Shown here: one piece after another, positions 7,451 to 18,612 of the stretch | Layout of the letters: the number at the start of each line of letters is the position of its first letter | Position numbering within the stretch: position 1 is the stretch's first letter | NCBI GenBank assembly: GCA_013824215.1 | Contig: PNNM01000003.1 | Span: 1 to 36,633 of the forward strand | Source of the DNA: Coriobacteriaceae bacterium | Lineage (GTDB): Bacteria > Actinomycetota > Coriobacteriia > Anaerosomatales > D1FN1-002 | Direction of reading: 5' to 3' | Length of the DNA: 36,633 nt | The notes under the pieces: model-generated | The model's database searches: none | Told to the model about the DNA's origin: nothing | The model's input: only the letters and a program-made list of their open reading frames with translations | Program-made: the position numbers and the translations under genes

Positions 7451-8272
7451 CTACGTATACGCGTAGAGCTTCCCGTAGGGCCGGTGGCTGACCGGCACCA
7501 GCTTCGTGAACGGCACCGAGAGCACCTCGGCCAGGTCCATCCCCTGCGCCGCGCAGTACTCCTCGAGAACCGGCTTCAGCTCGGCCATGTCCTCGGCGGA
7601 GGCCTCGAAGACGCCGACCTCCTTGCCGGTCTGCCATGGCTCCACCTCGCCGCGGACGTAGATCACGCCGCCGTGCATGCCGGTGCCGAGGTAGCCGCCC
7701 ACCAGCGGCCCCTCGAACTGGCTGTTCATGCCGAGTAGCACGAGCATGCCGCCGGCCATGTACTCGCCGAAGAAGTCGCGCGCTTTGCCGCCGCACACCA
7801 TGGCGGGCACGAGACCCTCGTAAGCCTTCATGTGGATGCCGACGCGGTAGCCCACGTCGCCTTTGATGAAGACCCGGCCGCCGCGCATGCCGTAGCCGAG
7901 CACGTCGCCGGCGTCGCCGTGCACGATGACGGTGCCGGCGTTCATCGTGTTGCTCACACCGTCCTGCGCGTTGCCGAAGACCTCGACGGTGGGCCCGTTC
8001 ATGAACATCGCCATGTCGTTGCCGGCGGTGCCGCGGACCTCGATCTTGAGGTCCTTGCCGGTGATCCCGTTGCCGATGTAGCGCTGGCCGTTGACGTTCT
8101 CGAGCACCACCTTCTTGGCGCCGTCGGCGTACGCGCGGCGGACGGCCTCGTTCAGTTGCCGGTAGTAGATGTTCTTGGCATCGATGGTCGCCGTGTCCCC
8201 CTCGCGGGCGACCGGCGGCTCGATCTTGAGGTAGCCGACCTGCGGAACCGTGGGATCCATGACCTGCTTCAT
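7451..8272 (-). CDS. Glutamate synthase GXGXG beta-helix subunit (GltB domain 3 / GlxC-like)
   Basis: Repeated G-x-x-G-x-x-x-G-x-x-M-x-x-G turns (GQRYIG, GDAGDVLGYGMRGG, GEYMAGG); GGAGG RBS. Confidence 0.9.
   Translation of the reverse strand: MKQVMDPTVPQVGYLKIEPPVAREGDTATIDAKNIYYRQLNEAVRRAYADGAKKVVLENVNGQRYIGNGITGKDLKIEVRGTAGNDMAMFMNGPTVEVFGNAQDGVSNTMNAGTVIVHGDAGDVLGYGMRGGRVFIKGDVGYRVGIHMKAYEGLVPAMVCGGKARDFFGEYMAGGMLVLLGMNSQFEGPLVGGYLGTGMHGGVIYVRGEVEPWQTGKEVGVFEASAEDMAELKPVLEEYCAAQGMDLAEVLSVPFTKLVPVSHRPYGKLYAYT
7457..7842. repeat. Right copy of ~386-bp direct repeat (inside the intact GXGXG gene)
   Basis: Matches 64..449. Confidence 0.95.
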
Positions 8273-8289: not shown

Positions 8290-9801
8290 CTACATACCCG
8301 CGGGCTTGACGCCCAGGATCCGGCAGGTCTGCTCATCGAGGCCGATGGCCCGCAGGCGCTCGCGCGAGCCGCGCAGAGACTCGACCGCGTTGACGCCGAG
8401 CGCGCCCAGGATCTCCTGCACCTCGTGGCTCCACGCGGAGACGAGGTTGACCAGCCGCTCGGCGCCCCACTCGGGATCGACGCGGCGGGTCAGTTCCGGC
8501 TTCTGCGTGGTGAGCCCCCACGAGCAGCAGCCGGTGTGACAGCCCTGGCACATGTGACAGCCGAGCGCCATCAGAGTCGCGCTGCCGATCGCCACCACGT
8601 CGGCGCCGAGCGCGATGGCCTTGGCCACGTCCGCCGAGGAGCGGATGGAGCCGGCCGCGATGATCGAGGCCTGGTTCCGGATGCCCTCGTCGCGGAGGCG
8701 CTGGTCCACCACGGCCACGGCGATCTCCACCGGGATGCCGATGTTGTCGCGGATGACCTGGGGCGCAGCGCCCGTGCCGCCTCGGAATCCGTCGAGGTAG
8801 ACGTAGTCTGCGCCCGCGCGCACGATGCCGCTCGCGATGGCGGCCACGTTGTGCACGGCCGCGATCTTCACGCCCACCGGCTTGTAGCCGGAGGCCTCTT
8901 TCAGCGAGTAGATGAGCTGGCGCAGGTCCTCGATGGAGTAGATGTCGTGGTGCGGCGCCGGCGAGATGGCGTCGGTGCCCTGCGGGATCATGCGCGTGGA
9001 GGAGACCTGCCGGTCGATCTTCTCGCCGGGCAGGTGCCCGCCGATGCCGGGCTTCGCGCCCTGGCCGACCTTGATCTCGATCGCGGCACCGCGGTTCAGG
9101 TACTCGGGATCCACTCCGAAGCGGCCCGAGGCGACCTGCACGATGACGTTGCCGGCATACGGGTAGAGGTCGGCGTGCAGCCCGCCCTCGCCGGTGTTCA
9201 TCAGAGTGCCGAGGCGCGTGGCCGCCATCGCCAGCGACTTGTGGACGTTCAGCGACACCGAACCGTAGCTCATCGGCGAGAAGATGATCGGCGTCGCCAG
9301 CTCGACGTTGTTGGTCATGCCGGCACCCTCGGCGAGCCGATAGCCTCCGTCGCCGTCGGACTCCACCGACACCGAGTCGGGCTTGCGGCCGAGGTAGGTC
9401 CGCAGCTCCATCGGCTCGCGCAGCGGGTCGATCGACGGGTTCGTGACCTGGCAGGCGTCGAGCACGAGGTGGTCGAAGATGCTCTGGTACGGCTTGTCGT
9501 TGCCCATGCCGGTCAGGAGCACGCCGCCGGTCTCGGCCTGCTTCCAGATCGACTTGCGCGCCGCATCGGACCAGTTGTCGTTGGTCTTCATGGCCAGGTC
9601 GTTCTTCTTGATGGTGATGCAGTGCGCCGGGCAGTACGTCACGCAGCGGTGGCACGCGCGGCACTTCGCGTCATCGGGCAGCGGGCGCTCGTTGAAGGCG
9701 TAGACGCCCCACCCGCACTGCTGAACACAGCGCCCGCACTTGTGGCACTTGTCGTAGTCGATGTCGACCTTGAACTCGGGCTGTATCAGTGTCTGCGGCA
9801 T
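8290..9801 (-). CDS. Glutamate synthase FMN-binding subunit with N-terminal 2[4Fe-4S] ferredoxin (archaeal-type GltB2 / GlxD-like)
   Basis: CHKCGRCVQQC and CRACHRCVTYC; MSYGS, NTGEGG, QVASGRFG, EIKVGQGAKPGIGGHLPGEK, PHHDIYSIEDL; C-terminal Cys cluster; start at MPQTLIQ. Confidence 0.93.
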   Translation of the reverse strand: MPQTLIQPEFKVDIDYDKCHKCGRCVQQCGWGVYAFNERPLPDDAKCRACHRCVTYCPAHCITIKKNDLAMKTNDNWSDAARKSIWKQAETGGVLLTGMGNDKPYQSIFDHLVLDACQVTNPSIDPLREPMELRTYLGRKPDSVSVESDGDGGYRLAEGAGMTNNVELATPIIFSPMSYGSVSLNVHKSLAMAATRLGTLMNTGEGGLHADLYPYAGNVIVQVASGRFGVDPEYLNRGAAIEIKVGQGAKPGIGGHLPGEKIDRQVSSTRMIPQGTDAISPAPHHDIYSIEDLRQLIYSLKEASGYKPVGVKIAAVHNVAAIASGIVRAGADYVYLDGFRGGTGAAPQVIRDNIGIPVEIAVAVVDQRLRDEGIRNQASIIAAGSIRSSADVAKAIALGADVVAIGSATLMALGCHMCQGCHTGCCSWGLTTQKPELTRRVDPEWGAERLVNLVSAWSHEVQEILGALGVNAVESLRGSRERLRAIGLDEQTCRILGVKPAGM

Positions 9802-9803
9802 GG

Positions 9804-11036
9804 CTAGCTCACCTCGACGGTCTCTTCGGCGCACGAGAACTCGGTGCCGGTGACGGCGCACGATAGCGCGGACGGTGACAGGTGCAGGTCGCCGTGGATC
9901 GGCCAGTCCATGCCGGAGACGCGAGCGATGGTGGGCTCGCCGGCCTTCGGCATCCAGACGCGGTCGGGCTCCGGCATGACTGCGCGGATGGCGCTCTCCT
10001 CGGAGGCGACCATCAGCACGCTGCCGGTGCGCGCGGCCACGAGCGGGCGCAGCTTGATGCGGTCGTTCAGCGCCACCATGCCGCCGTTGAAGCCGAGCAC
10101 GATGGCGAAGGGGCCGTTCAGCATGCCCGGGCCGTAGACGGCGCGCAGCGAGCGCAGAAGAGCCTGCTCGTCTTCCGGCATCCGGTCGATCTCGGTCCAC
10201 AGCGGGCTCGCGAGCGCCTTGCAGGCCAGCTCGAGCGGGAGCTTGTGGCGGCGCAGCATCAGGTCGAACAGGTAGGCGGCCACCTCGGTGTCCGTGCCCA
10301 GCGTGCACTTGTAGCCGAACGCCTCGAGATAGCGGCTGTTGATGCCGTAGCTCGAGATCTCGCCGTTGTGCACGATCGACCAGTCGAGCAGCGTGAAGGG
10401 GTGCGCGCCGCCCCACCAGCCCGGCGTGTTGGTCGGGAAGCGGTTGTGGCCGACCCAGGTGTGCGCCGAGTACTCCTCGAGGCGGTAGTAGTGCGCGATC
10501 TCCTCGGGATAGCCCACGCCCTTGAAGGCACCCATGTTCTTGCCCGACGAGGCCACGAACGCGCCGTCGACGGTGCCGTTGATGAGCATGACGGCGTGCA
10601 CGACGAAGTCCTCGGCGCTCTCGTCTCCTGCGTGGAGCTTGTCGGCGTCGGGGCGCAGGAAGTAGCGCCACAACAGCGGGGCGTCGTCGATGCCCTTGAC
10701 CGCGCGCGTCGGCATCGGCTCGGCGAGGTCCACGGCGAAGAAGCGCCCGAGGACCTCCTCGGCGTTCTGCCGCGCTGCGGTGTCGGCGTACATCATGTGG
10801 AAGCAGAAGTGGTCCGCGAACTCGGGGTAGATGCCGTAGCCGGCGAATCCGCCACCGAGCCCGTTGCCGCGGTCGTGCTGTATGGCCAGCGCGCGGATCG
10901 CGATCTCGCCGCCCATGAGCGAACCGGACTCGTCGCAGATGCCCATCAGGCCGCAGCCCCCGTGGATCTTGAACGGCGACTCCTCGCGGAAGCGGCGGGG
11001 GTCGAAGTCCCTGACTGCGTCGATGTCGTACGGCAC
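9804..11036 (-). CDS. Class II (Ntn) glutamine amidotransferase subunit (GltB1 / GlxB-like)
   Basis: CGLMGI after a short propeptide, HDRGNGLGGG, GHNRFPTN, HPF, HNGEI, TDTEV, DRIKLRP, ASEE; GTG start with GAGGAG RBS. Confidence 0.92.
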   Translation of the reverse strand: MPYDIDAVRDFDPRRFREESPFKIHGGCGLMGICDESGSLMGGEIAIRALAIQHDRGNGLGGGFAGYGIYPEFADHFCFHMMYADTAARQNAEEVLGRFFAVDLAEPMPTRAVKGIDDAPLLWRYFLRPDADKLHAGDESAEDFVVHAVMLINGTVDGAFVASSGKNMGAFKGVGYPEEIAHYYRLEEYSAHTWVGHNRFPTNTPGWWGGAHPFTLLDWSIVHNGEISSYGINSRYLEAFGYKCTLGTDTEVAAYLFDLMLRRHKLPLELACKALASPLWTEIDRMPEDEQALLRSLRAVYGPGMLNGPFAIVLGFNGGMVALNDRIKLRPLVAARTGSVLMVASEESAIRAVMPEPDRVWMPKAGEPTIARVSGMDWPIHGDLHLSPSALSCAVTGTEFSCAEETVEVS

Positions 11037-11041
11037 TGCGA

Positions 11042-12361
11042 TCACTCCTCGTCCATCAGGCGGGCGATGACGTCGCCGCCGGACACGGGCAAAGGCGAAA
11101 GGCCGAGCTTGGCGCGGGCGCCCTCCTTGGGCTTGCCGAGCGCTCCGGTCTCGAGGAAGGTGCGGTACGCCGAGGCCACGGACTCGGGTCCGGCCTCGGC
11201 GGCCATGGCGATCTCCTTCAGCTTCCGGAACGCCTCCGCCATGCCGATGTGGCTGTGGCACAGCTCCTGGCACGTGTAGCACTCGAGGCACTTCCACAGC
11301 TGCCCAGCGGCGACCACCTCGTCGATCTCGCCGCGCAGGAGCTGGCCGATGACCTCGGTGGGCTGGAACTCGCCGTCGACGGTACACACCGGGCAGTCGT
11401 CCTTGCACGCCTGGCAGGCGTAGCACTTGCCGAGGAGCGCGACGTCGAAGTCCTTCGCGATGCGCTCCTTGTCCGAGGCGCGCGCTCCCCACTTGGCCAG
11501 GAACGGCTCGACGGAGACGCGGTGCATGTCCAGGCCGATCTCCTCGGGTGTGTGGCCCATGCCGAGCGCGATGAGCTCGGAGAGGAAGAAGACGGGGACG
11601 TGGATGTCCTCGTTGGCGCGCTGGAGCGCGGCCTGGTTCAGGTCGAACTGCTGGAAGCAGCTCGGGCAGACCACCACGAGGGCGTCGACCTCCTCGCGTT
11701 TGAGGTCCTCGAGCTTGCGGCGGCAGAACGCCAGCGCGCCCTCACGCTCGCCCACACGGTCGAGCGCGCCGCCGCAGCACTGCATCTTGGTGGGGTAGTC
11801 GACGACCTTGGCGCCCAGCGCGGTCACGAACTGCTCGACCTTGACCGGGTGCAGCGGGTCGTCCCAGCGCACCGCCGGTTGCGGGCGCAGCAGATGGCAG
11901 CCGTAGTGGACGGCCACGCGCATCCCCCAGAACGGCTTCGTGATCCTGGACGCCACGAGCGCGCTGCCGAGCTCGTCGGTCAGCCACTCGGCGAAGTGCG
12001 TGATCTTGAGGTCGCCGGCGTAGTGCAGGCCCTCGGCGGCGAGCCGCTCGTTGATGCGCTCGCGCGAGCGCCAGTCGGTGGCCAAGTGGCTCGCCGCCTC
12101 GCGGAAGGTCGAGTAGCAGCCGTTGCAGGGAGTGACCACGTCGAGGCCGGCGCGCTCCACGAGCGCCAGGTTGCGGGCGGCGGTGGTGTAGAACGTCTCC
12201 TCGTCAGACGACTTCACGAGCACGCCCTCAGGGCAGCACGTGTGGCCGTCGAGCTCGTGGACGGTGGCGCCGAGGTCGGCGAACGCCAAGCGCGTCGCCT
12301 TCTCGATGAACGGGAAGCGCGCCGGGATGGTGCATCCCCAGAAGACCGCGAAGTCGTTCAT
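11042..12361 (-). CDS. Heterodisulfide reductase-like protein: HdrB (CCG domains) fused to a C-terminal HdrC-like 2[4Fe-4S] domain
   Basis: FWGC, TCCP, TPCNGC, HYGCHLLRP, QCCGG, CPSCFQQFD; then CYACQACKDDCP and LWKCLECYTCQELC. Confidence 0.88.
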   Translation of the reverse strand: MNDFAVFWGCTIPARFPFIEKATRLAFADLGATVHELDGHTCCPEGVLVKSSDEETFYTTAARNLALVERAGLDVVTPCNGCYSTFREAASHLATDWRSRERINERLAAEGLHYAGDLKITHFAEWLTDELGSALVASRITKPFWGMRVAVHYGCHLLRPQPAVRWDDPLHPVKVEQFVTALGAKVVDYPTKMQCCGGALDRVGEREGALAFCRRKLEDLKREEVDALVVVCPSCFQQFDLNQAALQRANEDIHVPVFFLSELIALGMGHTPEEIGLDMHRVSVEPFLAKWGARASDKERIAKDFDVALLGKCYACQACKDDCPVCTVDGEFQPTEVIGQLLRGEIDEVVAAGQLWKCLECYTCQELCHSHIGMAEAFRKLKEIAMAAEAGPESVASAYRTFLETGALGKPKEGARAKLGLSPLPVSGGDVIARLMDEE

Positions 12362-12399
12362 ACAGCTCTGCTCTCGCCTCCGTTGCGCGTACCCGAGAC

Positions 12400-12445
12400 G
12401 AACGAAAACGCCCGCCTCGGCCACGTCGATCGGGCCGGGCGAGCG
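12400..12445 (-). terminator. Intrinsic terminator (attenuator) in the operon leader
   Basis: CGCUCGCCCGGCC (12445-12433) pairs with GGCCG-A-GGCGGGCG (12422-12409): 13 bp, one bulge, one GU, followed by UUUUCGUU. Confidence 0.8.
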
Positions 12446-12486
12446 CCATTGCTCGCTTGATGCATGGGCGGCACGCCTTCGTGCCG
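12439..12486 (-). promoter_or_regulatory. ANTAR target RNA: two hexaloop hairpins
   Basis: CGGCAC-GAAGGC-GUGCCG (12486-12469), 12-nt linker, GCGAGC-AAUGGC-GCUCGC (12456-12439); G4 in both loops, A1 in the second; hairpin 2 overlaps the terminator. Confidence 0.82.
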
Positions 12487-12495
12487 GTAACCGAG

Positions 12496-12524
12496 AGTCT
12501 AGCAGGCGCCGTGCCGAGTTGGAA
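12496..12524 (-). promoter_or_regulatory. Putative sigma70-type promoter of the glutamate synthase operon
   Basis: TTCCAA-17 nt-TAGACT with extended -10 TG; start would fall just before ANTAR hairpin 1. Confidence 0.55.
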
Positions 12525-12596
12525 GGGGCGCGAAACGCATACGAAACGTCCGGGTGCTCGGTGCGTGGGCCCTGCCGGGCGTCGCGGGTCCGCGAG

Positions 12597-13880
12597 CTAC
12601 CGCCCCGAAGGGCTCCGTGCGCCGTAGTGCGCCGCGACGGTGGCGCCGAACGCCTCGGCACGGCGCAGCTCGGTGAAACCCATCGTGGCAGTGCACATGA
12701 CTTCGTGGGGAGGCTCCGGATTGCACACGATCCCGTACTCCTCGGCGCGCTCCCACAAAGGAGTGCCGGGCAGCACGTTGAGCGAGGAGAGCTGCACCTT
12801 GCCCGGATCGAGCGAGAGCAGGTAGTCAAGGCCGGCCGCGAGGTCGTCGGCCGTGTCGCCCGGCAGTCCGACGATGAGATCGCACTCGACGGCGATGCCC
12901 GCCTGCTTGCACGCCTCCACGCCAGCGGAGAAGCGCTCGCGATCGAACCTGCGGTTGCATCGCTCGAGCGTGGTCGCGCTCACGGTCTGGGGCCCGGTCT
13001 CGACCGAGACCACGCCGGCGCGGCGCAGGAGCGCGGCCTCCTCGGTGCCGATCCGCTCGATGTCCACCTCGATCGTGTGGAGCCGCACGCCCTGCCTCGC
13101 CCACGGCTCGAGGACGTCGCCGAGCCATTCCAGCCGCTCGCGGGTGAGATTGAAGACGGGGTCGATGAAGGACAGGCTGCGCGCTCGCCCGGAGCCGGCG
13201 ATCGCCTCGATCTCCGCCGCGACACGCTCCTGCGAGAAGTAGCGGATGCGATCGTAGCCCTTACCCTCGTAGCAGTACGCGCAACTCCTCGGACACCCGC
13301 GATACGTCTCGATGTAGGTGAGATCGCCGTGTGCTCCGAGCAGACCGCTCGCATACGGGGAGGGGATCGAGTCGAGATCCGCGATGAGCGGACGCGCGGG
13401 AGCGGAGACGACCCCGTCGTCCCGGCGGGTCGTCACGCCGTCCACGTACCACAAGCGTCCGCCATGGAGCATCGCGCCGAGCAGCTCCGCGAATGTCTCC
13501 TCGCCCTCGCCGCGCACGATCGTGTCGACGTACGGATGCGTCTCGAGTATCTGCTCGGCCATGGGACTGACCTCCGGCCCGCCCAGCACGATGTGGATCC
13601 CGGGAGACGTGCGCTTCACGATGGAGCACACCTGGTAGATATGCTGGGCGTTCCAGCACTTGACGGACATCCCGAGGACATCGGGCTCGAGCCGCAGTAT
13701 CCGATACGCCACCCACCACGGGTCCATGTCGCTGTCGAGATCCAGCGTCATGAAGCCGACGCGCCCCGCGAGCCGGGGCGCCTGCTCGGCGTACGCACGC
13801 ACGTACCCGAGGGCGAGCGACTGATGCCCGGGGGCGTTGAGGGCGACGAGCGCCACCTTCAGGTCCGGCGTCGCGCTCAT
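12597..13880 (-). CDS. Cobalamin-binding radical SAM protein
   Basis: N-terminal B12-binding-like domain (SLALGYV, LGGPEV, RGEGE), YRGCPRSCAYC, LIVGLPGDT, PGTPL. Confidence 0.9.
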   Translation of the reverse strand: MSATPDLKVALVALNAPGHQSLALGYVRAYAEQAPRLAGRVGFMTLDLDSDMDPWWVAYRILRLEPDVLGMSVKCWNAQHIYQVCSIVKRTSPGIHIVLGGPEVSPMAEQILETHPYVDTIVRGEGEETFAELLGAMLHGGRLWYVDGVTTRRDDGVVSAPARPLIADLDSIPSPYASGLLGAHGDLTYIETYRGCPRSCAYCYEGKGYDRIRYFSQERVAAEIEAIAGSGRARSLSFIDPVFNLTRERLEWLGDVLEPWARQGVRLHTIEVDIERIGTEEAALLRRAGVVSVETGPQTVSATTLERCNRRFDRERFSAGVEACKQAGIAVECDLIVGLPGDTADDLAAGLDYLLSLDPGKVQLSSLNVLPGTPLWERAEEYGIVCNPEPPHEVMCTATMGFTELRRAEAFGATVAAHYGARSPSGR

Positions 13881-14596
13881 CTCGCCGCTCCCGCGCCGAG
13901 CAATTCCACCGGAGGCCTCGCGTAGAGCCCCTCGGCACACTCGCCGGTCCCGACCGTGCACACCCACGCGCCGGACACCATCCCCGTGTCGACGGCGGCC
14001 TCGACCCAGGGGAGCGCCTGCGATCCGAGGGATGCGCGGGACAGATCGAGCGCGATGCTGCGGACGCCGTTCTGCGCGAGGGCGAGTACGGCCCCCGGAA
14101 GCGCCTGCAGGTTGTGCGCGCAGACGGGGACGCGCCCGCAGAGGATGTGCGGTGCCGACAGCGCGTCGAACGCCTCGCCGAGCGCACGCATGCCGGCCAG
14201 CGCCCTCTCGAACGAACCGGGACGGCCGGACAGGGAGTCGTGCGTCATCGCGTCCCCAGCCAGGACCGTGACCCGGACGTGTGTCACACCCTCGTCGGCG
14301 ACCATGCTCGCGATCCCCGGCCTCGACAGCGCCTCTCCCGCGGTCACCACACACAGGCGCTCGACCCCGAGCTCCATCACCGCGTGGATCAGCCGGCCTG
14401 CTTCCGGATGCTCGAGGGGGTCCGGCCCGACAAGCGTCAGATTCGGCCCCGGGCCCGCGGACCACGCGTCGACGATACAGCGCGCCCGCTCGACGATCCG
14501 CTCGACGGGATCGTAACTGACGTCCTCTTCGGCCGAGCACCGCAGACAGGACACGGCATCGCCTGCGCCGACCGGCACGGCGCCGAACTTGATCAC
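13877..14596 (-). CDS. Radical SAM-fold protein with degenerate cluster motif
   Basis: GDAVSCLRC in place of CxxxCxxC, GPDPLEHP (GGEP-like), VTAG (TNG-like), HDSLSGRPGSFERALAG; GTG start with GGGAG; ATGA overlap with next gene. Confidence 0.7.
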   Translation of the reverse strand: MIKFGAVPVGAGDAVSCLRCSAEEDVSYDPVERIVERARCIVDAWSAGPGPNLTLVGPDPLEHPEAGRLIHAVMELGVERLCVVTAGEALSRPGIASMVADEGVTHVRVTVLAGDAMTHDSLSGRPGSFERALAGMRALGEAFDALSAPHILCGRVPVCAHNLQALPGAVLALAQNGVRSIALDLSRASLGSQALPWVEAAVDTGMVSGAWVCTVGTGECAEGLYARPPVELLGAGAAR

Positions 14597-14783
14597 TCGA
14601 AAGACTCCCAGCCTCGGAGGGAACACGTCACGAGAGGCCGAAGATGGGCGAACGACCCCTATGTTACACGGGCGGCCGGCTGCCTGCGCCAGCTTTGGAA
14701 GCGACGCGGCCGGTCCGTGTCCCCGTTCGCTGCAGCGGGTAAGAGCCGTCATGGACACGGGCGCCCGTGACAGGGAGGCGGCC

Positions 14784-15614
14784 ATGGGAAGCGACACGCT
14801 CGTCATCGCGCAGTTCTCGGACTTCCACTGCGGGGACGCGAGGTTCGACCCCCGCCTCATGCGGGCGGTTGTCGACGAGATCGTCGAGCTGTTACCGGAC
14901 CTGGTCGTGGTACCGGGGGACCTCACCGAGCAGGGCTATCTCGACCAGTTCGTCGACGCGCGCAGCTGGCTGGAGCAGCTCGAGTGTCCGAACGTGGTCA
15001 TCGTCCCGGGCAACCACGACGCCCGCAACGTCGGCTTCATGCACTTCGAGACGCTGTTCGGCCAGCGGTTCTCGAGCACGCTCCTGCCGTACGGCGAGGG
15101 AGGCGCGCGCGCGGCGCGCGTCGTGGCCGTCGACTCCAGCCGGCCCGATCTGAACCAAGGCGAGATCGGGCGGGACCGCTACCGGTGGCTGTTCGACCAG
15201 CTGACCGAGGAGGACGACGCGGTCCGGATGCTCGTGATGCACCATCACCTCGTCAGTGTCCCGGGCACGGGGCGAGAGCGGAACATCCTCTGGGACGCCG
15301 GCGACGTGCTGCAGATACTCTCCGAGTGCCGCACCGACCTCGTGCTCGCCGGACACAAGCACGTGCCGTACGTGTGGCAGGTCAACGGCATCGTCATCGC
15401 CACGAGCGGGACCGCCGCCACGCGACGGACGCGCGGCCGCACGCCGCCGTCGTTCAACATCGTGCGAGTCACGCCGGAGGAGATACGCGTGACCATGCGC
15501 AACACCGGTCAGTCCACGGGGCGCGAGACGGTGTTCCCACGGCGACCTGAGATCGCGGTCGGCGGCACCGCTCGACGGGGCGCGACCGAACCGGGCGTGG
15601 CGATGAAACTGTAG
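14784..15614 (+). CDS. Metallophosphoesterase (Icc/CpdA-like)
   Basis: SDFH, GDL, GNHD, HHH, GHKH motifs; GGAGG RBS. Confidence 0.9.
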   Translation: MGSDTLVIAQFSDFHCGDARFDPRLMRAVVDEIVELLPDLVVVPGDLTEQGYLDQFVDARSWLEQLECPNVVIVPGNHDARNVGFMHFETLFGQRFSSTLLPYGEGGARAARVVAVDSSRPDLNQGEIGRDRYRWLFDQLTEEDDAVRMLVMHHHLVSVPGTGRERNILWDAGDVLQILSECRTDLVLAGHKHVPYVWQVNGIVIATSGTAATRRTRGRTPPSFNIVRVTPEEIRVTMRNTGQSTGRETVFPRRPEIAVGGTARRGATEPGVAMKL

Positions 15615-15661
15615 CGCGCCCCGACATGACGGCGCGTCTTCCGACGACTCGCGCGTCGCCC

Positions 15662-15724
15662 TTGACGAACGCGCGCCGTGGTAATACCTTCGATACCACT
15701 TCCGATACTACCCGAGGTGATACC
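15662..15724 (+). promoter_or_regulatory. vapBC promoter with short direct repeats (likely operator)
   Basis: TTGACG-17 nt-TACCTT; (G/A)ATAC(C/T) at 15683, 15692, 15704, 15719. Confidence 0.55.
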
Positions 15725-16021
15725 GTGGCCAAGACCACGATCTCCGTGCCGGACGCCTTGCTCGCCGACATCGATCGTCGGGCGGCTGACAGCGGCATGA
15801 CTCGCAGCGGCTTCGTCCAGGAGGCCGCCGCTCGCTACATCACCACCCTCGACGAGGAGCAGACACGGCTCGAGCGCGAGAAGCGCATCAGCAAGGCGAT
15901 CGAGGGTATGCGCGAGATCGCCGAGCACATGCCGCCCGGCACCGACGGCACCGCGATCATCCGGCACTTCCGTGACCTGCCCGAGCCGTGGCTCACGCCA
16001 CACAAGGACGCCGACGAATGA
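15725..16021 (+). CDS. vapB: Ribbon-helix-helix (CopG-like) antitoxin
   Basis: KTTISVPDALLADID...TRSGFVQEA RHH pattern; GAGGTG RBS; overlaps PIN gene. Confidence 0.8.
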   Translation: MAKTTISVPDALLADIDRRAADSGMTRSGFVQEAAARYITTLDEEQTRLEREKRISKAIEGMREIAEHMPPGTDGTAIIRHFRDLPEPWLTPHKDADE

Positions 16022-16437
16022 GCGACCAGCTTCCCGTCTTCGTCGTCGATAGCTCGGTCGCCTACAAGTGGTTCAACGCGAAGGGCGAAACGCACGTCGA
16101 GGCGGCACTGCAGCTGCTGTCCGGGCACGCCACACGCGCGCTCCTCTTGGCTGCGCCGGCGCACATGCCGTCGGAAGTGATGAACGGACTGCGATTCGCG
16201 GGGCTTGACGTCGAGTACCTGCGTCGCGCGCCCGAGAAGCTGATGGGCGCCGAGATCGCCACCTTCCCCCTCGACGCCGAGTTGCTCGCTTCCGCGCTCG
16301 ACTTGGCGCTCGCCCACGATCTGACGATCCACGACGCGCTCTTCCCGGCCCTCGCGATCCGGCTCGACTGCGAACTCGTGACCGCCGACCGTGCGCAGGC
16401 TCGCGTCCGCGAATGCCCGGTGCGCCTGCTGTCCTGA
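16018..16437 (+). CDS. vapC: PIN-domain toxin
   Basis: VVDSSV, SEVMN, HDALF, LVTAD acidic motifs. Confidence 0.88.
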   Translation: MSDQLPVFVVDSSVAYKWFNAKGETHVEAALQLLSGHATRALLLAAPAHMPSEVMNGLRFAGLDVEYLRRAPEKLMGAEIATFPLDAELLASALDLALAHDLTIHDALFPALAIRLDCELVTADRAQARVRECPVRLLS

Positions 16438-16469
16438 GCGGGTCGCCCGCAAGAGCGGCACCACGCCGG

Positions 16470-17045
16470 CTACGGCTCGGCCCCGGCCTCGGCGGCGAGC
16501 ACGACGGCCTCGGCGATCTCCCGCAGCGTCTTGCGCTTGTCCATCGCGAGCTTCTGCAAACGCCGGAACGCGTCGGGCTCGCTCAGTCCCCCGGCCATGA
16601 GCACGCCCTTGGCGCGGTCGACGGCCTTGCGCGTCTCGAGCCGCTCGTTCAGGTCCGAGATCTCCTCGGCGAGTGCTCGGGCCTCGGCGAAGCGGGCCGT
16701 GGCGATCTCCATGGCCGGGAGCACGTCGGCCTTGGTGAACGGCTTGACGACGTAGCCCATCGCACCGGCCTCCGTGGCCTGCCTGACCACGTCGGCTTGC
16801 GAGAACGCCGTCACCATCACCACCGGCGCCAGCTGCTCCTCGCCGATGACGCGCGCGGCCTCCAGCCCGTCCATGCCGGGCATCTTCACGTCCATGAACA
16901 CGATGTCGGGTCGCTTGTCGCGCGCGGCCGAGACAGCTTCGGCGCCATCGCGTGCCTCACCCACGACCTCGTGGCCCTCCTCCTCCAGCATCTCGCGCAG
17001 GTCCATGCGGATGAGGCCCTCGTCCTCGGCGATGATCACGCGCAT
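16470..17045 (-). CDS. pdtaR: REC-ANTAR response regulator (PdtaR/EutV-like antiterminator)
   Basis: IIAEDE, FMDVKMP, YVVKPF; ANTAR RKAVDRAKGVLM...SEPDAFRRLQKLAMDKR. Confidence 0.92.
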   Translation of the reverse strand: MRVIIAEDEGLIRMDLREMLEEEGHEVVGEARDGAEAVSAARDKRPDIVFMDVKMPGMDGLEAARVIGEEQLAPVVMVTAFSQADVVRQATEAGAMGYVVKPFTKADVLPAMEIATARFAEARALAEEISDLNERLETRKAVDRAKGVLMAGGLSEPDAFRRLQKLAMDKRKTLREIAEAVVLAAEAGAEP

Positions 17046-17046
17046 G

Positions 17047-18465
17047 TCAGCGACCCTCCTCCCCGTTGCCGAGCGGAACGCGCACCGTGACCGCGGTCCC
17101 GCGGCTACGGGAGAACGACAGCGTGCCGCGCAGGTCGTCCTGGACCAGAGTGCGGACGATGGCGAGCCCCAGGTGGCCGCCGGACTCCGGGTCGACGTCC
17201 GCGGGCATCCCGGGACCGTCGTCGTGGACCTGGAGCACGACCTCGTCGGGCTCCCGGCGCATGCTCACGGTGACGACACCCGCCGGACGGCCGGCCACGC
17301 CGTGCTCGATCGCGTTGTGGACGAGCTCGGCGGCCACCAGCGACAGCGACGTCGCGACCGCGGCGGAGACGTAGCCGGTGTCGCCCTCGGTCATCACCGT
17401 GACGCCCGGGCTCTCGCCGGCCATGCCACGACGCACCTGCTCGACCACTGTGCGGCAGACCTCGGCGAAGTCCACGCGCTCGTCGCTGGCGCCGGCGAGC
17501 ATCTCGTGCACGACCGCCATCGAGGTCACGCGCTCGACCGCCTCGGAGAGCGAGCGACGCTCGTTGTCGGACTGCGCGCGACGGGCCTGGAGCCGCAGGA
17601 GCGCGGCGATGGTCTGAAGGTTGTTCTTCACGCGATGGTGTACCTCGCGGATGGTCGTCTCCTTGACCTTGAGCTCCTGCTCGCGGCGCCTGGCCTCGGT
17701 GACATCCTCGACCAGCACAAAGGCACCCCGCTCGAGAGCGATCGTGCGGTAGAGCAGCGAGCGGCCCGCGAACTCCACCTCGGCAGCCGCGGCCGTTCCC
17801 GGCTCGGCCACTCGGGCTATGGCGAGGCCGCCGCCGGGCAGCTCGGCGGCGTGCGCGCCGCGGACGCTCTCCACACCGGCGAGCTTCATGATCGTCACCG
17901 CGTTCGGGCTCGCGTAGACCAGCGCGCCGTCCGGTCCGATGCGCATGACGCCGTCGCCCGCTGTGCGGGTCGTGGCGAACGGCGCTGCGGTCTCCACGTC
18001 ACGCAGTGGTGAGATCGACAGCACACCGAGCAGGTCGTCGGCCAAGCGCATGAACTCGGTCTCCATCGTGCCCGGCGCCTCGGCGACCTGACTCGCGAGA
18101 TTCTCGACGAACACGGCGTACGGCATCTCGCCGCCGATCGGGTAGGCCGAGGTCACGTAGCTGATCCCGCGCGTCGTGCGCCGGCGCTCCCCGCGGACGG
18201 TGCGCCCTGATCCGAGCGCCTCGTACGCCTCGGGCTCCTCGGAAGCGGCGAGCGTCTGCCCCAGGCGCGAGACTGCCAGCGCCGCGACCGCCGTGATGGG
18301 ACGGGCGTCGGCTATCACGCGCAGCGAGCCGTCGGCACCGGCCACGGCGAGCGCCACATCGCCGTAGGCCATGTCGGCGACGAGCTGCAGGTTGGCGGCG
18401 AAGTTGGCGAGGTGGTCGCGCGCGGGCGCGGCGAGGGTGCCCGGGATCTCGATGTCGGTGTCCAT
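17047..18465 (-). CDS. pdtaS: Cytoplasmic sensor kinase (PdtaS/EutW-like; H_kinase_N, PAS, HisKA_2)
   Basis: LQLVADMAYGD, GDGVMR/YASPNA, REVHHRVKNNLQ, ELVHNAIEHG, DDGPG, LGLAIV. Confidence 0.88.
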   Translation of the reverse strand: MDTDIEIPGTLAAPARDHLANFAANLQLVADMAYGDVALAVAGADGSLRVIADARPITAVAALAVSRLGQTLAASEEPEAYEALGSGRTVRGERRRTTRGISYVTSAYPIGGEMPYAVFVENLASQVAEAPGTMETEFMRLADDLLGVLSISPLRDVETAAPFATTRTAGDGVMRIGPDGALVYASPNAVTIMKLAGVESVRGAHAAELPGGGLAIARVAEPGTAAAAEVEFAGRSLLYRTIALERGAFVLVEDVTEARRREQELKVKETTIREVHHRVKNNLQTIAALLRLQARRAQSDNERRSLSEAVERVTSMAVVHEMLAGASDERVDFAEVCRTVVEQVRRGMAGESPGVTVMTEGDTGYVSAAVATSLSLVAAELVHNAIEHGVAGRPAGVVTVSMRREPDEVVLQVHDDGPGMPADVDPESGGHLGLAIVRTLVQDDLRGTLSFSRSRGTAVTVRVPLGNGEEGR

Positions 18466-18471
18466 GCGCCG

Positions 18472-18477
18472 ATTGTA
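18472..18477 (-). promoter_or_regulatory. -10 box of probable leaderless pdtaS transcript
   Basis: TACAAT 6 nt before ATG 18465; no Shine-Dalgarno. Confidence 0.55.
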
Positions 18478-18526
18478 CGACAGCACCCGGCCGCTGCTCG
18501 GCTGATATCATGGTGCGGCCGCGGAG

Positions 18527-18612
18527 GCCCGGGTGGCGGAACGGCAGACGCAGAGGTCTCAAAAACCTCCGGGGGAAACCCCGTGTGGGTTCGACTCCCA
18601 CCCCGGGCACCA
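18527..18612 (+). tRNA. tRNA-Leu (CAA)
   Basis: Acceptor GCCCGGG/CCCGGGC+ACCA, anticodon arm GAGGT-CTCAAAA-ACCTC, long variable arm, T-arm GTGGG-TTCGACT-CCCAC. Confidence 0.97.

What the first reader, a model, noticed from the sequence alone, without database searches (positions are those of the whole stretch)
12400..12524. ANTAR dual-hairpin antitermination switch in the Hdr/glutamate synthase leader, with an ANTAR two-component system 4 kb away
Seen (minus strand): promoter-like TTCCAA-17-TAGACT, then CGGCAC[GAAGGC]GUGCCG, a 12-nt linker and GCGAGC[AAUGGC]GCUCGC. The 3' strand of hairpin 2 is part of the 5' arm of a 13-bp terminator with a U-tract, about 40 nt before the first gene, so the two folds are mutually exclusive. 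Established: this is the architecture of EutV/NasR/AmiR targets (two hexaloops, A1/G4); reported actinobacterial ANTAR sites mostly overlap the RBS instead. Loop 1 has G rather than A at position 1. Inference: PdtaS/PdtaR (16470-18465) switch on nitrogen assimilation by antitermination, giving a PdtaR-type protein a concrete local target.
Basis: partly seen in the sequence, partly recalled or inferred. Interest (0 to 1): 0.85.

Follow-up and report, generated by a model that had tools for sequence, protein, structure and literature searches.

The report
ANTAR antiterminator leader of glutamate synthase
A short RNA switch in front of the glutamate synthase genes of a group of subsurface actinobacteria very probably lets the nearby PdtaS/PdtaR signalling pair turn on nitrogen assimilation by blocking premature transcription termination; the mechanism is known, but here it occurs in a new lineage with an unusually clear regulator-target pairing.

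Summary
On the minus strand, an extended -10 promoter (12504-12496) is followed by hairpin P1 (12486-12469), a 12-nt linker and hairpin P2 (12456-12439). A -27 kcal/mol terminator (12444-12409, then UUUUCGUU) uses P2's 3' strand as its 5' arm. The tail ends 39 nt before the first gene.

A generic dual-hexaloop pattern occurs at chance frequency in this 69% GC genome. The case therefore rests on comparison:
- All 30 orthologous leaders examined, and 79 of 80 further loci, keep the element.
- P1 covaries, loop position 4 is G in 30/30 for both loops, and all 30 form a terminator starting on P2's 3' strand.
- The model hits once per genome in 62 of 68 genomes of the order and in 0 of 150 other Actinomycetota.
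- Each genome has a single ANTAR gene, a PdtaR-like regulator. In 49 of 64 leader-bearing genomes it lies within 6.4 kb upstream on the same strand.

Binding and readthrough remain untested. ANTAR control of nitrogen genes, including glutamate synthase in a Firmicute, was already predicted in 2012, so this is a new member of a known kind.

The parts
12532..12547 (-). Direct repeat GTTTC-N6-GTTTC upstream of the promoter; a candidate binding site for an activator.
   Evidence: One of only 2 exact sites in the 1.24 Mb genome, with 0 for the reversed control pattern. Present with at most 1 mismatch in 23 of 30 orthologous leaders. In 21 of those the gap to the -10 hexamer is 19-21 or 30-32 nt; in the other 2 it is 42-43 nt.
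12519..12524 (-). -35-like hexamer TTCCAA (weak).
   Evidence: Sequence. It matches TTGACA in 3 of 6 positions by my count. No promoter was reported by the simple scan.
12496..12504 (-). Extended -10, TGCTAGACT.
   Evidence: TGnTAnnnT is present in 30 of 30 orthologous leaders, 42-56 nt upstream of P2.
12469..12486 (-). Hairpin P1: 6-bp stem with hexaloop GAAGGC.
   Evidence: Across 30 leaders 97.8% of cells are paired and 5 of 6 pairs change on both sides. In 79 further leaders 97.2% are paired. Loop position 4 is G in 30/30.
12457..12468 (-). 12-nt linker between the hairpins.
   Evidence: The linker is 6-19 nt in 30 relatives.
12439..12456 (-). Hairpin P2: 6-bp stem (5 bp in most relatives) with hexaloop AAUGGC. 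It is the antiterminator element.
   Evidence: Loop position 1 is A in 29/30, position 2 is A in 30/30 and position 4 is G in 30/30. The inner 4 pairs are invariant or nearly so.
12409..12444 (-). Intrinsic terminator hairpin. Its 5' arm begins with P2's 3' strand, GCUCGC.
   Evidence: -27.0 kcal/mol with 14 pairs. All 30 of 30 relatives form an 11-15 bp hairpin (-18.5 to -28.1 kcal/mol) starting at the first base of P2's 3' strand. The base helix is 94.8% paired and 3 pairs change on both sides.
12401..12408 (-). U-rich tail UUUUCGUU.
   Evidence: The consensus in relatives is GTTTTCGTTT.
11045..12361 (-). First gene of the operon: a fused HdrB/HdrC-like iron-sulfur protein.
   Evidence: Pfam CCG x2 plus Fer4. 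NCBIfam HdrB and HdrC models match below their cut-offs.
9804..11039 (-). Class-II glutamine amidotransferase domain protein (glutamate synthase domain 1). The start coordinate is approximate.
   Evidence: Pfam GATase_2/6/7. It matches positions 177-260 of the large-subunit model NF008730.
8290..9801 (-). Glutamate synthase FMN domain protein with an N-terminal 4Fe-4S ferredoxin part. The start coordinate is approximate.
   Evidence: Pfam Glu_synthase, E 2.7e-135. It matches NF008730 positions 865-1176.
7451..8272 (-). GXGXG domain protein (glutamate synthase domain 3).
   Evidence: Pfam PF01493, E 1.1e-31.
16470..17045 (-). PdtaR-like response regulator (receiver + ANTAR). It is the only ANTAR gene found in this genome.
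   Evidence: Pfam. Best solved relative is 1s8n at 1e-61. It is the single PF03861 match in the genome.
17047..18486 (-). PdtaS-like histidine kinase, 1 nt upstream of the regulator gene.
   Evidence: Pfam GAF_PdtaS, HisKA_2 and HATPase_c. Best solved relative is 2ykf, the PdtaS sensor, at 1.5e-20.

Best explanation
This is the 5' leader of the operon for a split, archaeal-type glutamate synthase preceded by an HdrB/C-like iron-sulfur protein. Transcription starts a few bases before P1, from a conserved extended -10 promoter. The default fate of the transcript is termination. The strong hairpin at 12444-12409 followed by UUUUCGUU forms because it is about 6 kcal/mol more stable than any fold that keeps P2. 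When the PdtaS kinase activates the PdtaR-like regulator, a dimer of its ANTAR domains binds the two hexaloops of P1 and P2. This holds P2 closed and withholds GCUCGC from the terminator, so RNA polymerase reads into the operon.

Shown here: the RNA architecture, its conservation and covariation, its mutual exclusivity with the terminator, one copy per genome, and co-occurrence and synteny with the only ANTAR gene. Inferred: binding by PdtaR, readthrough, dependence on phosphorylation, and the signal, which is probably nitrogen or redox status.

A second input is likely. A GTTTC-N6-GTTTC box upstream of the promoter recurs next to other nitrogen-related genes.
For: 1. Anatomy in the window.

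2. Conservation.
- 30 of 30 orthologous leaders from 30 genomes keep P1, P2 and the terminator.
- 79 of 80 loci from public genome contigs have one model match each, on the gene's strand just upstream of the gene. The 80th locus holds only 72 nt of upstream sequence.

3. Covariation.
- P1 is 97.8% paired with 5 of 6 pairs changed on both sides. In the second set it is 97.2% paired.
- The terminator base that includes P2's 3' strand is 94.8% paired, with 3 pairs changed on both sides. Slid controls give 38-55%.

4. ANTAR recognition code. G4 is found in 30/30 for both loops. A1 is found in 29/30 for loop 2. The linker is 6-19 nt. These fit the published definition of hexaloops with A1 and G4 and a linker of 2-25 nt (PMC8164766, passages read).

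5. Energetics. The terminator is -27.0 and P2 is -9.8 kcal/mol. The fold with P2 forced is -39.5, against an MFE of -45.6.

6. Regulator.
- There is exactly one ANTAR domain per genome in 37 of 41 relatives, and none was found in the other 4.
- All 64 of 64 leader-positive genomes in the class sample have an ANTAR gene. None of the 77 ANTAR-negative genomes has the leader.
- By my hand tally of the coordinates, the ANTAR gene lies on the same contig and strand, 76-6,384 nt upstream of the leader, in 49 of 64 genomes. It lies 11-15 kb upstream in 3 and on another contig in 12.
- From, 29 of 36 genomes have it 209-6,016 nt upstream of the first gene.

7. Specificity.
- There is one strong hit per genome (51-59 bits), and the next best scores at most 23.5 bits.
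- None of 150 other Actinomycetota genomes has a hit.
- Genomes of the order without the leader also lack the target genes: G131 and G053 had no FMN-subunit match and G035 had no Hdr-like gene match. G053 and G035 also have no ANTAR gene.

8. In a relative from another order with lower GC, the same leader has a clean UUUUUU tail and a compensatory A-U at the shared terminator base.
Against: - No experiment or transcript data exist. No RNA run holding this sequence was listed, so termination and readthrough are unobserved.
- Loop 1 has G, not A, at position 1 here and in 13 of 30 relatives. In E. faecalis EutV, mutating that A reduced induction (PMC3369931).
- In the window RNAfold closes G1-C6 of loop 1, which would leave a tetraloop.
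- No curated ANTAR model was available. The Rfam scan gave no family at gathering score and only a weak narK RNA match of 16.4 bits against a 43.2 cut-off.
- P2's core pairs never vary, so they give no covariation evidence either way.
- The U-tract is interrupted (UUUUCGUU), and a simple terminator scan did not flag the site.
- One genome (G131, 98% complete) keeps the ANTAR gene but showed no leader and no FMN-subunit gene with my queries. PdtaR may therefore have other targets.
- Reported mycobacterial PdtaR targets act on translation, not termination (PMC12591593, passages read).
- Related genomes are not independent, so the co-occurrence counts overstate the statistical weight.
Confidence: 0.8

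Rival explanations
1. The leader is a genuine conserved attenuator, but another factor reads it: a metabolite (riboswitch) or a different RNA-binding protein. The linkage to PdtaR would then reflect only shared physiology.
For: Binding is untested. Loop 1 departs from the canonical A1 in 13 of 30 leaders. P2's sequence is far more conserved than pairing alone requires, which could serve another ligand.
Against: - The element is two small hairpins with no evident pocket.
- The invariant G4 in both loops and A1/A2 in loop 2 match the ANTAR code.
- No Rfam riboswitch or leader family matched at gathering score.
- The only ANTAR gene lies next to the leader in most genomes, and leader and ANTAR gene co-occur in 64 of 64.
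Confidence: 0.1
2. PdtaR binds the dual hairpin but acts on translation or mRNA stability, as reported for mycobacterial ANTAR targets. The downstream hairpin would be only a structural or insulating element.
For: [quoted passage not shown]
Against: - By my subtraction, the dual hairpin ends 55-137 nt before the start codon in the 30 leaders. It therefore does not touch the ribosome-binding site.
- All 30 of 30 have a strong hairpin plus U-rich tail that overlaps P2 exactly, with compensatory changes at the overlap. That conservation is explained only by competition between terminator and antiterminator.
Confidence: 0.05
3. The hairpin plus U-tail is simply the terminator of the upstream genes (pdtaSR, or the radical SAM gene in this window). 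The two small hairpins would be incidental.
For: In 15 of 64 leader-bearing genomes the ANTAR gene ends within about 300 nt of the leader (my tally). The terminator could therefore also stop upstream transcription. Generic dual hexaloop hairpins occur by chance in this genome.
Against: - A conserved extended -10 lies between the upstream gene and P1 in 30 of 30 leaders, so the terminator sits inside a leader.
- The element stays with the glutamate synthase operon when the upstream gene differs, which is the radical SAM gene here.
- P1 covaries and the loop bases are invariant, which incidental hairpins would not show.
Confidence: 0.04

Closest known systems
EutV/EutW-controlled eut leaders of Enterococcus faecalis (ANTAR dual-hairpin antiterminators)
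   Same: Two small hairpins with hexaloops, G at loop position 4, the second hairpin sharing its 3' strand with an intrinsic terminator, and a receiver+ANTAR response regulator paired with a histidine kinase (PMC3369931, passages; here). The regulator's second-best solved relative is a response regulator, 6wsh, at 8.8e-41. That this chain is EutV is recalled, not checked.
   Different: Here there is a single leader per genome rather than several. The target is glutamate synthase rather than ethanolamine use. Loop 1 position 1 is A or G. The kinase is PdtaS-type.
Predicted ANTAR substrates upstream of glutamate synthase and other nitrogen genes in Firmicutes and Proteobacteria (Ramesh et al. 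2012; Desulfotomaculum reducens)
   Same: The same predicted logic: an ANTAR dual hairpin overlapping a terminator in front of glutamate synthase genes (PMC3369931, passage).
   Different: The phylum differs (Actinomycetota, class Coriobacteriia). Here there is one site per genome with a syntenic single regulator. Whether the target enzymes are orthologous was not examined. That paper's tables are supplements I could not open.
Mycobacterial PdtaS/PdtaR (Rv3220c/Rv1626) and its ANTAR RNA targets
   Same: The regulator's best solved relative is 1s8n, over its full length at 1e-61. The kinase's best solved relative is the PdtaS sensor domain. The domain architectures are the same. That 1s8n is Rv1626 is recalled.
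   Different: The mycobacterial targets described overlap ribosome-binding sites or start codons and repress translation, and a 2025 review table lists the operon as unknown (PMC12591593). Here the two genes are adjacent to each other and near the target, and the target is a terminator-type leader. That the mycobacterial kinase and regulator genes are unlinked is recalled, not tested.
NasR / nasF leader of Klebsiella
   Same: ANTAR protein, a hexaloop with A1/G4 upstream of a terminator, and a nitrogen assimilation target (PMC3369931).
   Different: That NasR senses through a NIT domain and not through a two-component receiver is recalled, not checked here. The target there is nitrate assimilation.
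Rfam narK RNA (RF03032)
   Same: A weak sub-threshold match of 16.4 bits over P1 and P2 at 12439-12515. In the printed alignment, a hexaloop-like hairpin aligns to P1 and a CAA-G-CG stretch aligns to P2.
   Different: The score is far below the gathering score of 43.2, so this is not a member. Whether narK RNA is itself an ANTAR target I could not verify (the search was uninformative).

Membership tests
ANTAR-target RNA (definition of Ramesh 2012 / Mehta & Ramesh 2021) | [quoted passage not shown] | tested here: met
   Stems are 6 and 6 bp with a 12-nt linker in the window. The linker is 6-19 nt in 30 relatives. Definition from PMC8164766.
ANTAR-target RNA (definition of Ramesh 2012 / Mehta & Ramesh 2021) | Hexanucleotide loops on both hairpins | tested here: met
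   Loop columns are gap-free and 6 nt long in 30 of 30 leaders. Caveat: in the window G1-C6 of loop 1 can pair, leaving a tetraloop.
ANTAR-target RNA (definition of Ramesh 2012 / Mehta & Ramesh 2021) | G at position 4 of both loops | tested here: met
   30/30 in loop 1 and 30/30 in loop 2.
ANTAR-target RNA (definition of Ramesh 2012 / Mehta & Ramesh 2021) | A at position 1 of both loops | tested here: inconclusive
   Loop 2 has A in the window and in 29/30 leaders. Loop 1 has G in the window, with 17 A and 13 G in 30. The 2021 criteria allow one point variation in the loops.
ANTAR-target RNA (definition of Ramesh 2012 / Mehta & Ramesh 2021) | Second hairpin overlaps an intrinsic terminator (the antitermination class) | tested here: met
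   30 of 30. Covariation at the shared base is shown.
ANTAR-target RNA (definition of Ramesh 2012 / Mehta & Ramesh 2021) | Genome encodes an ANTAR-domain protein | tested here: met
   There is one PF03861 match in the genome. 64 of 64 leader-bearing genomes have one.
ANTAR-target RNA (definition of Ramesh 2012 / Mehta & Ramesh 2021) | Score against a curated ANTAR covariance model | not testable with these tools
   The Rfam 15 scans returned no ANTAR-named family. The published seed alignments are in supplements, which are closed.
ANTAR-target RNA (definition of Ramesh 2012 / Mehta & Ramesh 2021) | Specific binding by the ANTAR protein and regulator-dependent readthrough | not testable with these tools
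   This needs EMSA and in vitro transcription. No RNA run was listed.
PdtaS/PdtaR-type two-component system | Regulator with a receiver domain plus a C-terminal ANTAR domain, closest to Rv1626 | tested here: met
   Pfam Response_reg 2.1e-29 and ANTAR 8.3e-21. The top solved relative is 1s8n at 1e-61 over residues 2-182. That 1s8n is Rv1626 is recalled.
PdtaS/PdtaR-type two-component system | Cytoplasmic kinase with a PdtaS-type GAF sensor, a HisKA_2 dimerisation domain and an ATPase domain | tested here: met
   Pfam GAF_PdtaS 1.3e-16, HisKA_2 6.3e-23 and HATPase_c 4e-16. The top solved relative is 2ykf, PdtaS, at 1.5e-20. Absence of transmembrane segments was not tested.
Intrinsic (Rho-independent) terminator | GC-rich hairpin immediately followed by a U-rich tract | tested here: met
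   -27.0 kcal/mol with 14 pairs, followed by UUUUCGUU. 30 of 30 relatives show the same. The simple scan did not flag it because of its bulges.
Actinobacterial GlnR box (considered for the upstream GTTTC repeat) | Match to the published GlnR operator consensus and presence of a GlnR orthologue | not tested
   Only a resemblance is recalled: 11-nt periodic direct repeats typical of OmpR-type regulators. The repeat's rarity and its neighbours were examined, but no regulator was identified.

The most novel reading that the evidence does not exclude
In Anaerosomatales, PdtaS/PdtaR is a dedicated one-regulator, one-RNA antitermination switch. Its only target would be the glutamate synthase leader, gated together with an OmpR-type nitrogen activator bound at the GTTTC repeat. 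This would suggest that the original job of the PdtaS/PdtaR pair in Actinomycetota was antitermination control of nitrogen assimilation, and that the translational repression of scattered mRNAs seen in mycobacteria came later. It would also offer the cleanest natural system for finding what PdtaS senses.
Probability: 0.3. Interest if true: 0.65.

Novelty: new member of a known kind. Interest (0 to 1): 0.5.

Why it matters
- PdtaS/PdtaR is widespread in Actinomycetota, yet a 2025 review table still lists the operon controlled by Rv1626 as unknown (PMC12591593). Here the pair sits next to a single, sharply defined RNA target conserved across a whole order. That gives a concrete, testable regulator-target pair and a physiological theme, glutamate synthesis.
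- It shows that terminator-type ANTAR control is the rule in at least one high-GC lineage. The 2021 survey found it in only a few actinobacterial cases (PMC8164766).
- It annotates the main control point of nitrogen assimilation in Anaerosomatales (OPB41), a cosmopolitan subsurface group with only two cultured species (PMC9686372).
- The covariance model built here could be used to annotate this leader in metagenomes.

Tried and rejected
- Rfam at gathering score found only a tRNA in the window. The permissive scan of the leader gave only chance-level hits, the best thematically being narK RNA at 16.4 bits. I do not treat this as membership.
- The simple promoter/terminator scan found neither element.
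- I searched for further targets in the window's own genome. The leader model gave nothing above 17.7 bits. A generic dual-hexaloop scan gave chance numbers, and I saw no U-rich tract in the sequence printed after any of the other listed hits. I therefore propose no further targets. The genome is only 73% complete and the model is tuned to this leader.
- In the window, the MFE fold of the whole leader pairs the terminator's 3' arm with downstream sequence, forming a 12-bp hairpin with a UUUU loop at 12420-12393 (-19.5 kcal/mol). By eye this pairing is poor in relatives, and it cannot form before the terminator is transcribed. I did not test it systematically.
- Expression evidence: no RNA holder was listed for window 11400-13400. 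I did not lay reads.
- The literature search was badly framed (prefix matches to 'Antarctic') and gave nothing usable.
- Supplementary tables of PMC8164766 and PMC3369931 may list Coriobacteriia or glutamate synthase targets. I could not open them. My statement that this leader is not described rests on three checks only. First, the searches. Second, zero occurrences of 'glutamate', 'gltB', 'GOGAT' and 'Coriobacter' in the main text of PMC8164766. Third, zero occurrences of 'PdtaR' in PMC12591593, where 'glutamate' occurs twice, both in passages on histidine degradation.
- I did not use complex prediction, because it takes no RNA chain. I did not use structure prediction either.
Full report
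**What is in the sequence.** I read the minus strand of 12200-12700 and located the elements by script.

- TTCCAA lies at 12524-12519. A 17-nt spacer follows, then TAGACT at 12501-12496. TGC precedes TAGACT, making an extended -10.
- Hairpin P1, CGGCAC[GAAGGC]GUGCCG, lies at 12486-12469.
- A 12-nt linker follows.
- Hairpin P2, GCGAGC[AAUGGC]GCUCGC, lies at 12456-12439.
- A long hairpin lies at 12444-12409, with 14 pairs, two bulges and -27.0 kcal/mol. Its first six bases are P2's 3' strand.
- The tail UUUUCGUU follows at 12408-12401.
- The ATG of the first gene is at 12361, 39 nt after the tail.

Taken alone, P2 is worth -9.8 kcal/mol. Forcing P2 in the transcript that exists when polymerase reaches the U-tract costs about 6 kcal/mol relative to the terminator fold (-39.5 against -45.6). 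The default state is therefore termination.

**Genes.** All coding genes below are on the minus strand (Pfam; NCBIfam).

- A radical SAM/B12-binding gene ends at 12597.
- After the 235-nt intergenic region comes a fused HdrB/HdrC-like protein (12361-11045).
- Then come a class-II amidotransferase domain protein, an FMN glutamate synthase domain protein with a ferredoxin part, and a GXGXG protein (8272-7451).
- The last three map onto successive parts of the large glutamate synthase subunit model, so this is a split, archaeal-type enzyme.
- Upstream, 17045-16470 encodes a receiver+ANTAR regulator. Its best solved relative is 1s8n (E 1e-61, full length), which I recall to be Rv1626.
- 18486-17047 encodes a kinase with a PdtaS-type GAF domain. 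Its best solved relative is the PdtaS sensor 2ykf.

**Is it more than chance?** Not on the pattern alone.

- In this 68.7% GC genome, two hexaloop hairpins with A1/G4 and stems of at least 5 bp occur 17 times, against 10-26 in five shuffles. With the relaxed loop 1 the count is 53 against 39-55.
- The simple promoter/terminator scan flagged neither element.
- No Rfam family matched at its curated threshold. The only thematically related sub-threshold hit was narK RNA at 16.4 bits.

**Comparative evidence.** Comparison with related genomes decides the matter.

- *Orthologues.* The first gene has close orthologues (70-78% identity) in 36 of the 40 related genomes searched.
- *Conservation.* In all 30 loci fetched, the upstream region keeps the same layout.
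- *P1.* On the 30-sequence alignment, P1 is paired in 97.8% of cells and 5 of its 6 pairs show changes on both sides. Sliding the partner by 1-3 columns drops pairing of the combined P1+P2 structure from 91.4% to 22-48%.
- *P2.* Its inner four pairs are invariant or nearly so, which is uninformative. Its outermost pair is unpaired in 23 of 30, so it is normally a 5-bp stem.
- *Loops.* Position 4 is G in 30/30 for both loops. In loop 2, position 1 is A in 29/30 and position 2 is A in 30/30. In loop 1, position 1 is A in 17 and G in 13.
- *Linker.* It is 6-19 nt.
- *Terminator.* Folding the segment from P2's 3' strand to the U-tract gave an 11-15 bp hairpin of -18.5 to -28.1 kcal/mol in 30 of 30. 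It always begins at the first base of P2's 3' strand and is followed by a U-rich tail.
- *Shared base.* The seven base pairs that join P2's 3' strand to the conserved GGCGGGC are paired in 94.8% of cells, with three pairs changed on both sides. Slid controls give 38-55%. This is direct support for mutual exclusivity.
- *Second set.* Among 80 loci from named public contigs, 79 gave one model match each, on the gene's strand just upstream of the gene. The remaining locus holds only 72 nt upstream. P1 is 97.2% paired in that set, and P2's outer pair shows 10 compensatory cells. That alignment was fitted to the model, which favours the structure.

**Distribution.** I built a covariance model of the dual hairpin (R1).

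- It hits once per genome. The window's own genome gives 59 bits with the next best at 17.7. Four relatives give 51.6-58.1 bits with the next best at or below 23.5.
- In a class-wide sample of 151 genomes it matched 62 of 68 genomes of the same order and 2 of 2 genomes of one family in another order. It matched 0 of 81 in the remaining families.
- Three of the six misses in the order have weaker matches in the right place (35.5, 26 and 19.7 bits). Two more, G131 and G053, had no match for the FMN subunit. The sixth, G035, had no match for the first gene.
- In a phylum-wide sample, 0 of 150 other genomes matched.
- Record titles of the relatives are mostly 'Coriobacteriia' or 'Anaerosomatales' MAGs. 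The lineage is therefore the OPB41/Anaerosomatales group, which has two cultured species (PMC9686372, passages).
- In the same-family genome G001 the Hdr-like gene was not found. There the leader directly precedes the amidotransferase gene. The leader belongs to glutamate synthase.
- In the lower-GC relative from the other order, the leader keeps both hairpins. It has a compensatory A-U at the shared terminator base and a clean UUUUUU tail.

**Link to the regulator.**

- The window's genome has a single ANTAR domain, the PdtaR-like gene. Of 41 related genomes, 37 have exactly one. None was found in the other four, which are 51%, 76%, 86% and 96% complete.
- In the class sample all 64 leader-positive genomes have an ANTAR gene, and none of the 77 ANTAR-negative genomes has the leader.
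- I tallied the coordinates by hand. The ANTAR domain lies on the same contig and strand, 76-6,384 nt upstream of the leader, in 49 of 64 genomes. In 15 of these it is within about 300 nt, that is, the adjacent gene. It lies 11-15 kb upstream in 3 and on another contig in 12, several of them at contig edges.
- The earlier sample gives 29 of 36. The two samples overlap, and related genomes are not independent.
- The window's 4 kb gap, filled by the radical SAM gene, a phosphoesterase and an unassigned ORF, looks like an insertion into an ancestral pdtaS-pdtaR-leader-operon arrangement.

**Mechanism.** The best reading is classical ANTAR antitermination. A dimer of activated regulator clamps P1 and P2, P2's 3' strand is withheld from the terminator, and polymerase reads through.

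- Shown: the architecture, covariation, exclusivity, uniqueness and synteny.
- Inferred: binding, phosphorylation dependence, readthrough and the signal.

Points against:
- There is no transcript evidence. No RNA holder was listed.
- Loop 1 is non-canonical at position 1.
- The U-tract is interrupted.
- P2's core does not vary.
- One well-assembled genome keeps the ANTAR gene without leader or operon being found by my queries.
- Reported mycobacterial PdtaR targets act on translation (PMC12591593).

**A second input.** A direct repeat GTTTC-N6-GTTTC lies upstream of the promoter at 12547-12532.

- It is one of only two exact sites in the genome, with 0 for the control pattern.
- The other site lies between glutamine synthetase and a divergent Cys-rich gene.
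- The repeat, with at most 1 mismatch, is present in 23 of 30 leaders. In 21 of those the gap to the -10 falls in two registers one helical turn apart; in the other 2 it is a further turn longer. TGnTAnnnT is present in 30 of 30.
- In four relatives the exact repeat occurs 2-7 times per genome, against 0 for the control.
- Of the ten downstream ORFs I scanned from 17 sites, two carry a glutamate synthase domain, one is an ADP-ribosylglycohydrolase and seven had no Pfam match.
- This suggests a nitrogen-related activator. I did not identify it, and the resemblance to GlnR boxes is only recalled.

**Comparison with what is known.**

- The published definition of ANTAR targets is dual stem-loops, hexaloops with A1 and G4, and a linker of 2-25 nt (PMC8164766). 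The antitermination class adds P2 overlapping a terminator (PMC3369931). The leader meets this definition except for A1 of loop 1.
- Ramesh et al. 2012 had already predicted such elements upstream of many nitrogen genes, including glutamate synthase genes in Desulfotomaculum reducens. The principle is therefore not new.
- The following appear not to be in print. The lineage is new: the main text of the 2021 actinobacterial survey does not mention Coriobacteriia, gltB or glutamate, and says only a few actinobacterial targets sit on terminators. The pairing of a PdtaS/PdtaR-type system with one syntenic terminator-type target across a whole order is also new. A 2025 review table lists the Rv1626 operon as unknown.
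- I read only passages of these papers, and their supplements were closed.

**Verdict.** It is a new member of a known kind. I put confidence in PdtaR-dependent antitermination at 0.8 and interest at 0.5.

Noticed in passing
window 12532-12547 (-); L154 1084-1099 (-): The direct repeat GTTTC-N6-GTTTC occurs only twice in the 1.24 Mb genome: upstream of this promoter, and between glutamine synthetase and a divergent Cys-rich gene. In four relatives it occurs 2-7 times per genome (0 for the control). Of 10 downstream ORFs scanned, two carry a glutamate synthase domain and one is an ADP-ribosylglycohydrolase. It is probably the operator of a nitrogen-related OmpR-type activator.
   Followed up: partly
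L154 1-1005 (-) (own genome, contig C98): The gene downstream of the second GTTTC box has a Cys-rich N-terminus and no Pfam or NCBIfam match in the 335 aa held, because the contig ends there. The longer ORFs downstream of the same box in two relatives carry a distant Glu_synthase domain from about residue 285. It is likely a glutamate synthase-related protein encoded next to glnA.
   Followed up: partly
window 12597-16464: Three genes lie between pdtaR and the leader: a radical SAM/B12-binding gene at 12597-14540 (-), a metallophosphoesterase at 14589-15614 (+), and an ORF at 15835-16464 (-) with no Pfam match. In many relatives pdtaR is directly adjacent to the leader, so this looks like an insertion.
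   Followed up: partly
L042 (G001 contig C22): In a relative of the same family the Hdr-like gene was not found with my query. There the leader directly precedes the amidotransferase domain gene of glutamate synthase.
   Followed up: yes
window 12393-12420 (-): A 12-bp hairpin with a UUUU loop (-19.5 kcal/mol) can form between the terminator's 3' arm and downstream sequence, and it appears in the MFE of the full leader. By eye it is weak in relatives. Its role, if any, after readthrough is unknown.
   Followed up: partly
window 18527-18609 (+): A tRNA gene (Rfam RF00005, 54.1 bits) lies about 40 nt beyond the start of pdtaS on the opposite strand. The anticodon was not determined.
   Followed up: no
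G131 (same order, 98% complete): This genome keeps an ANTAR gene, but my queries found neither the leader nor the glutamate synthase FMN subunit. Either the locus is unassembled or PdtaR has another target there.
   Followed up: partly
whole genome G000: Generic ANTAR-like dual hexaloop hairpins (A1/G4, stems of at least 5 bp) occur at the frequency expected by chance in this high-GC genome: 17 against 10-26 in shuffles. Pattern-only ANTAR predictions in such genomes need comparative support.
   Followed up: yes
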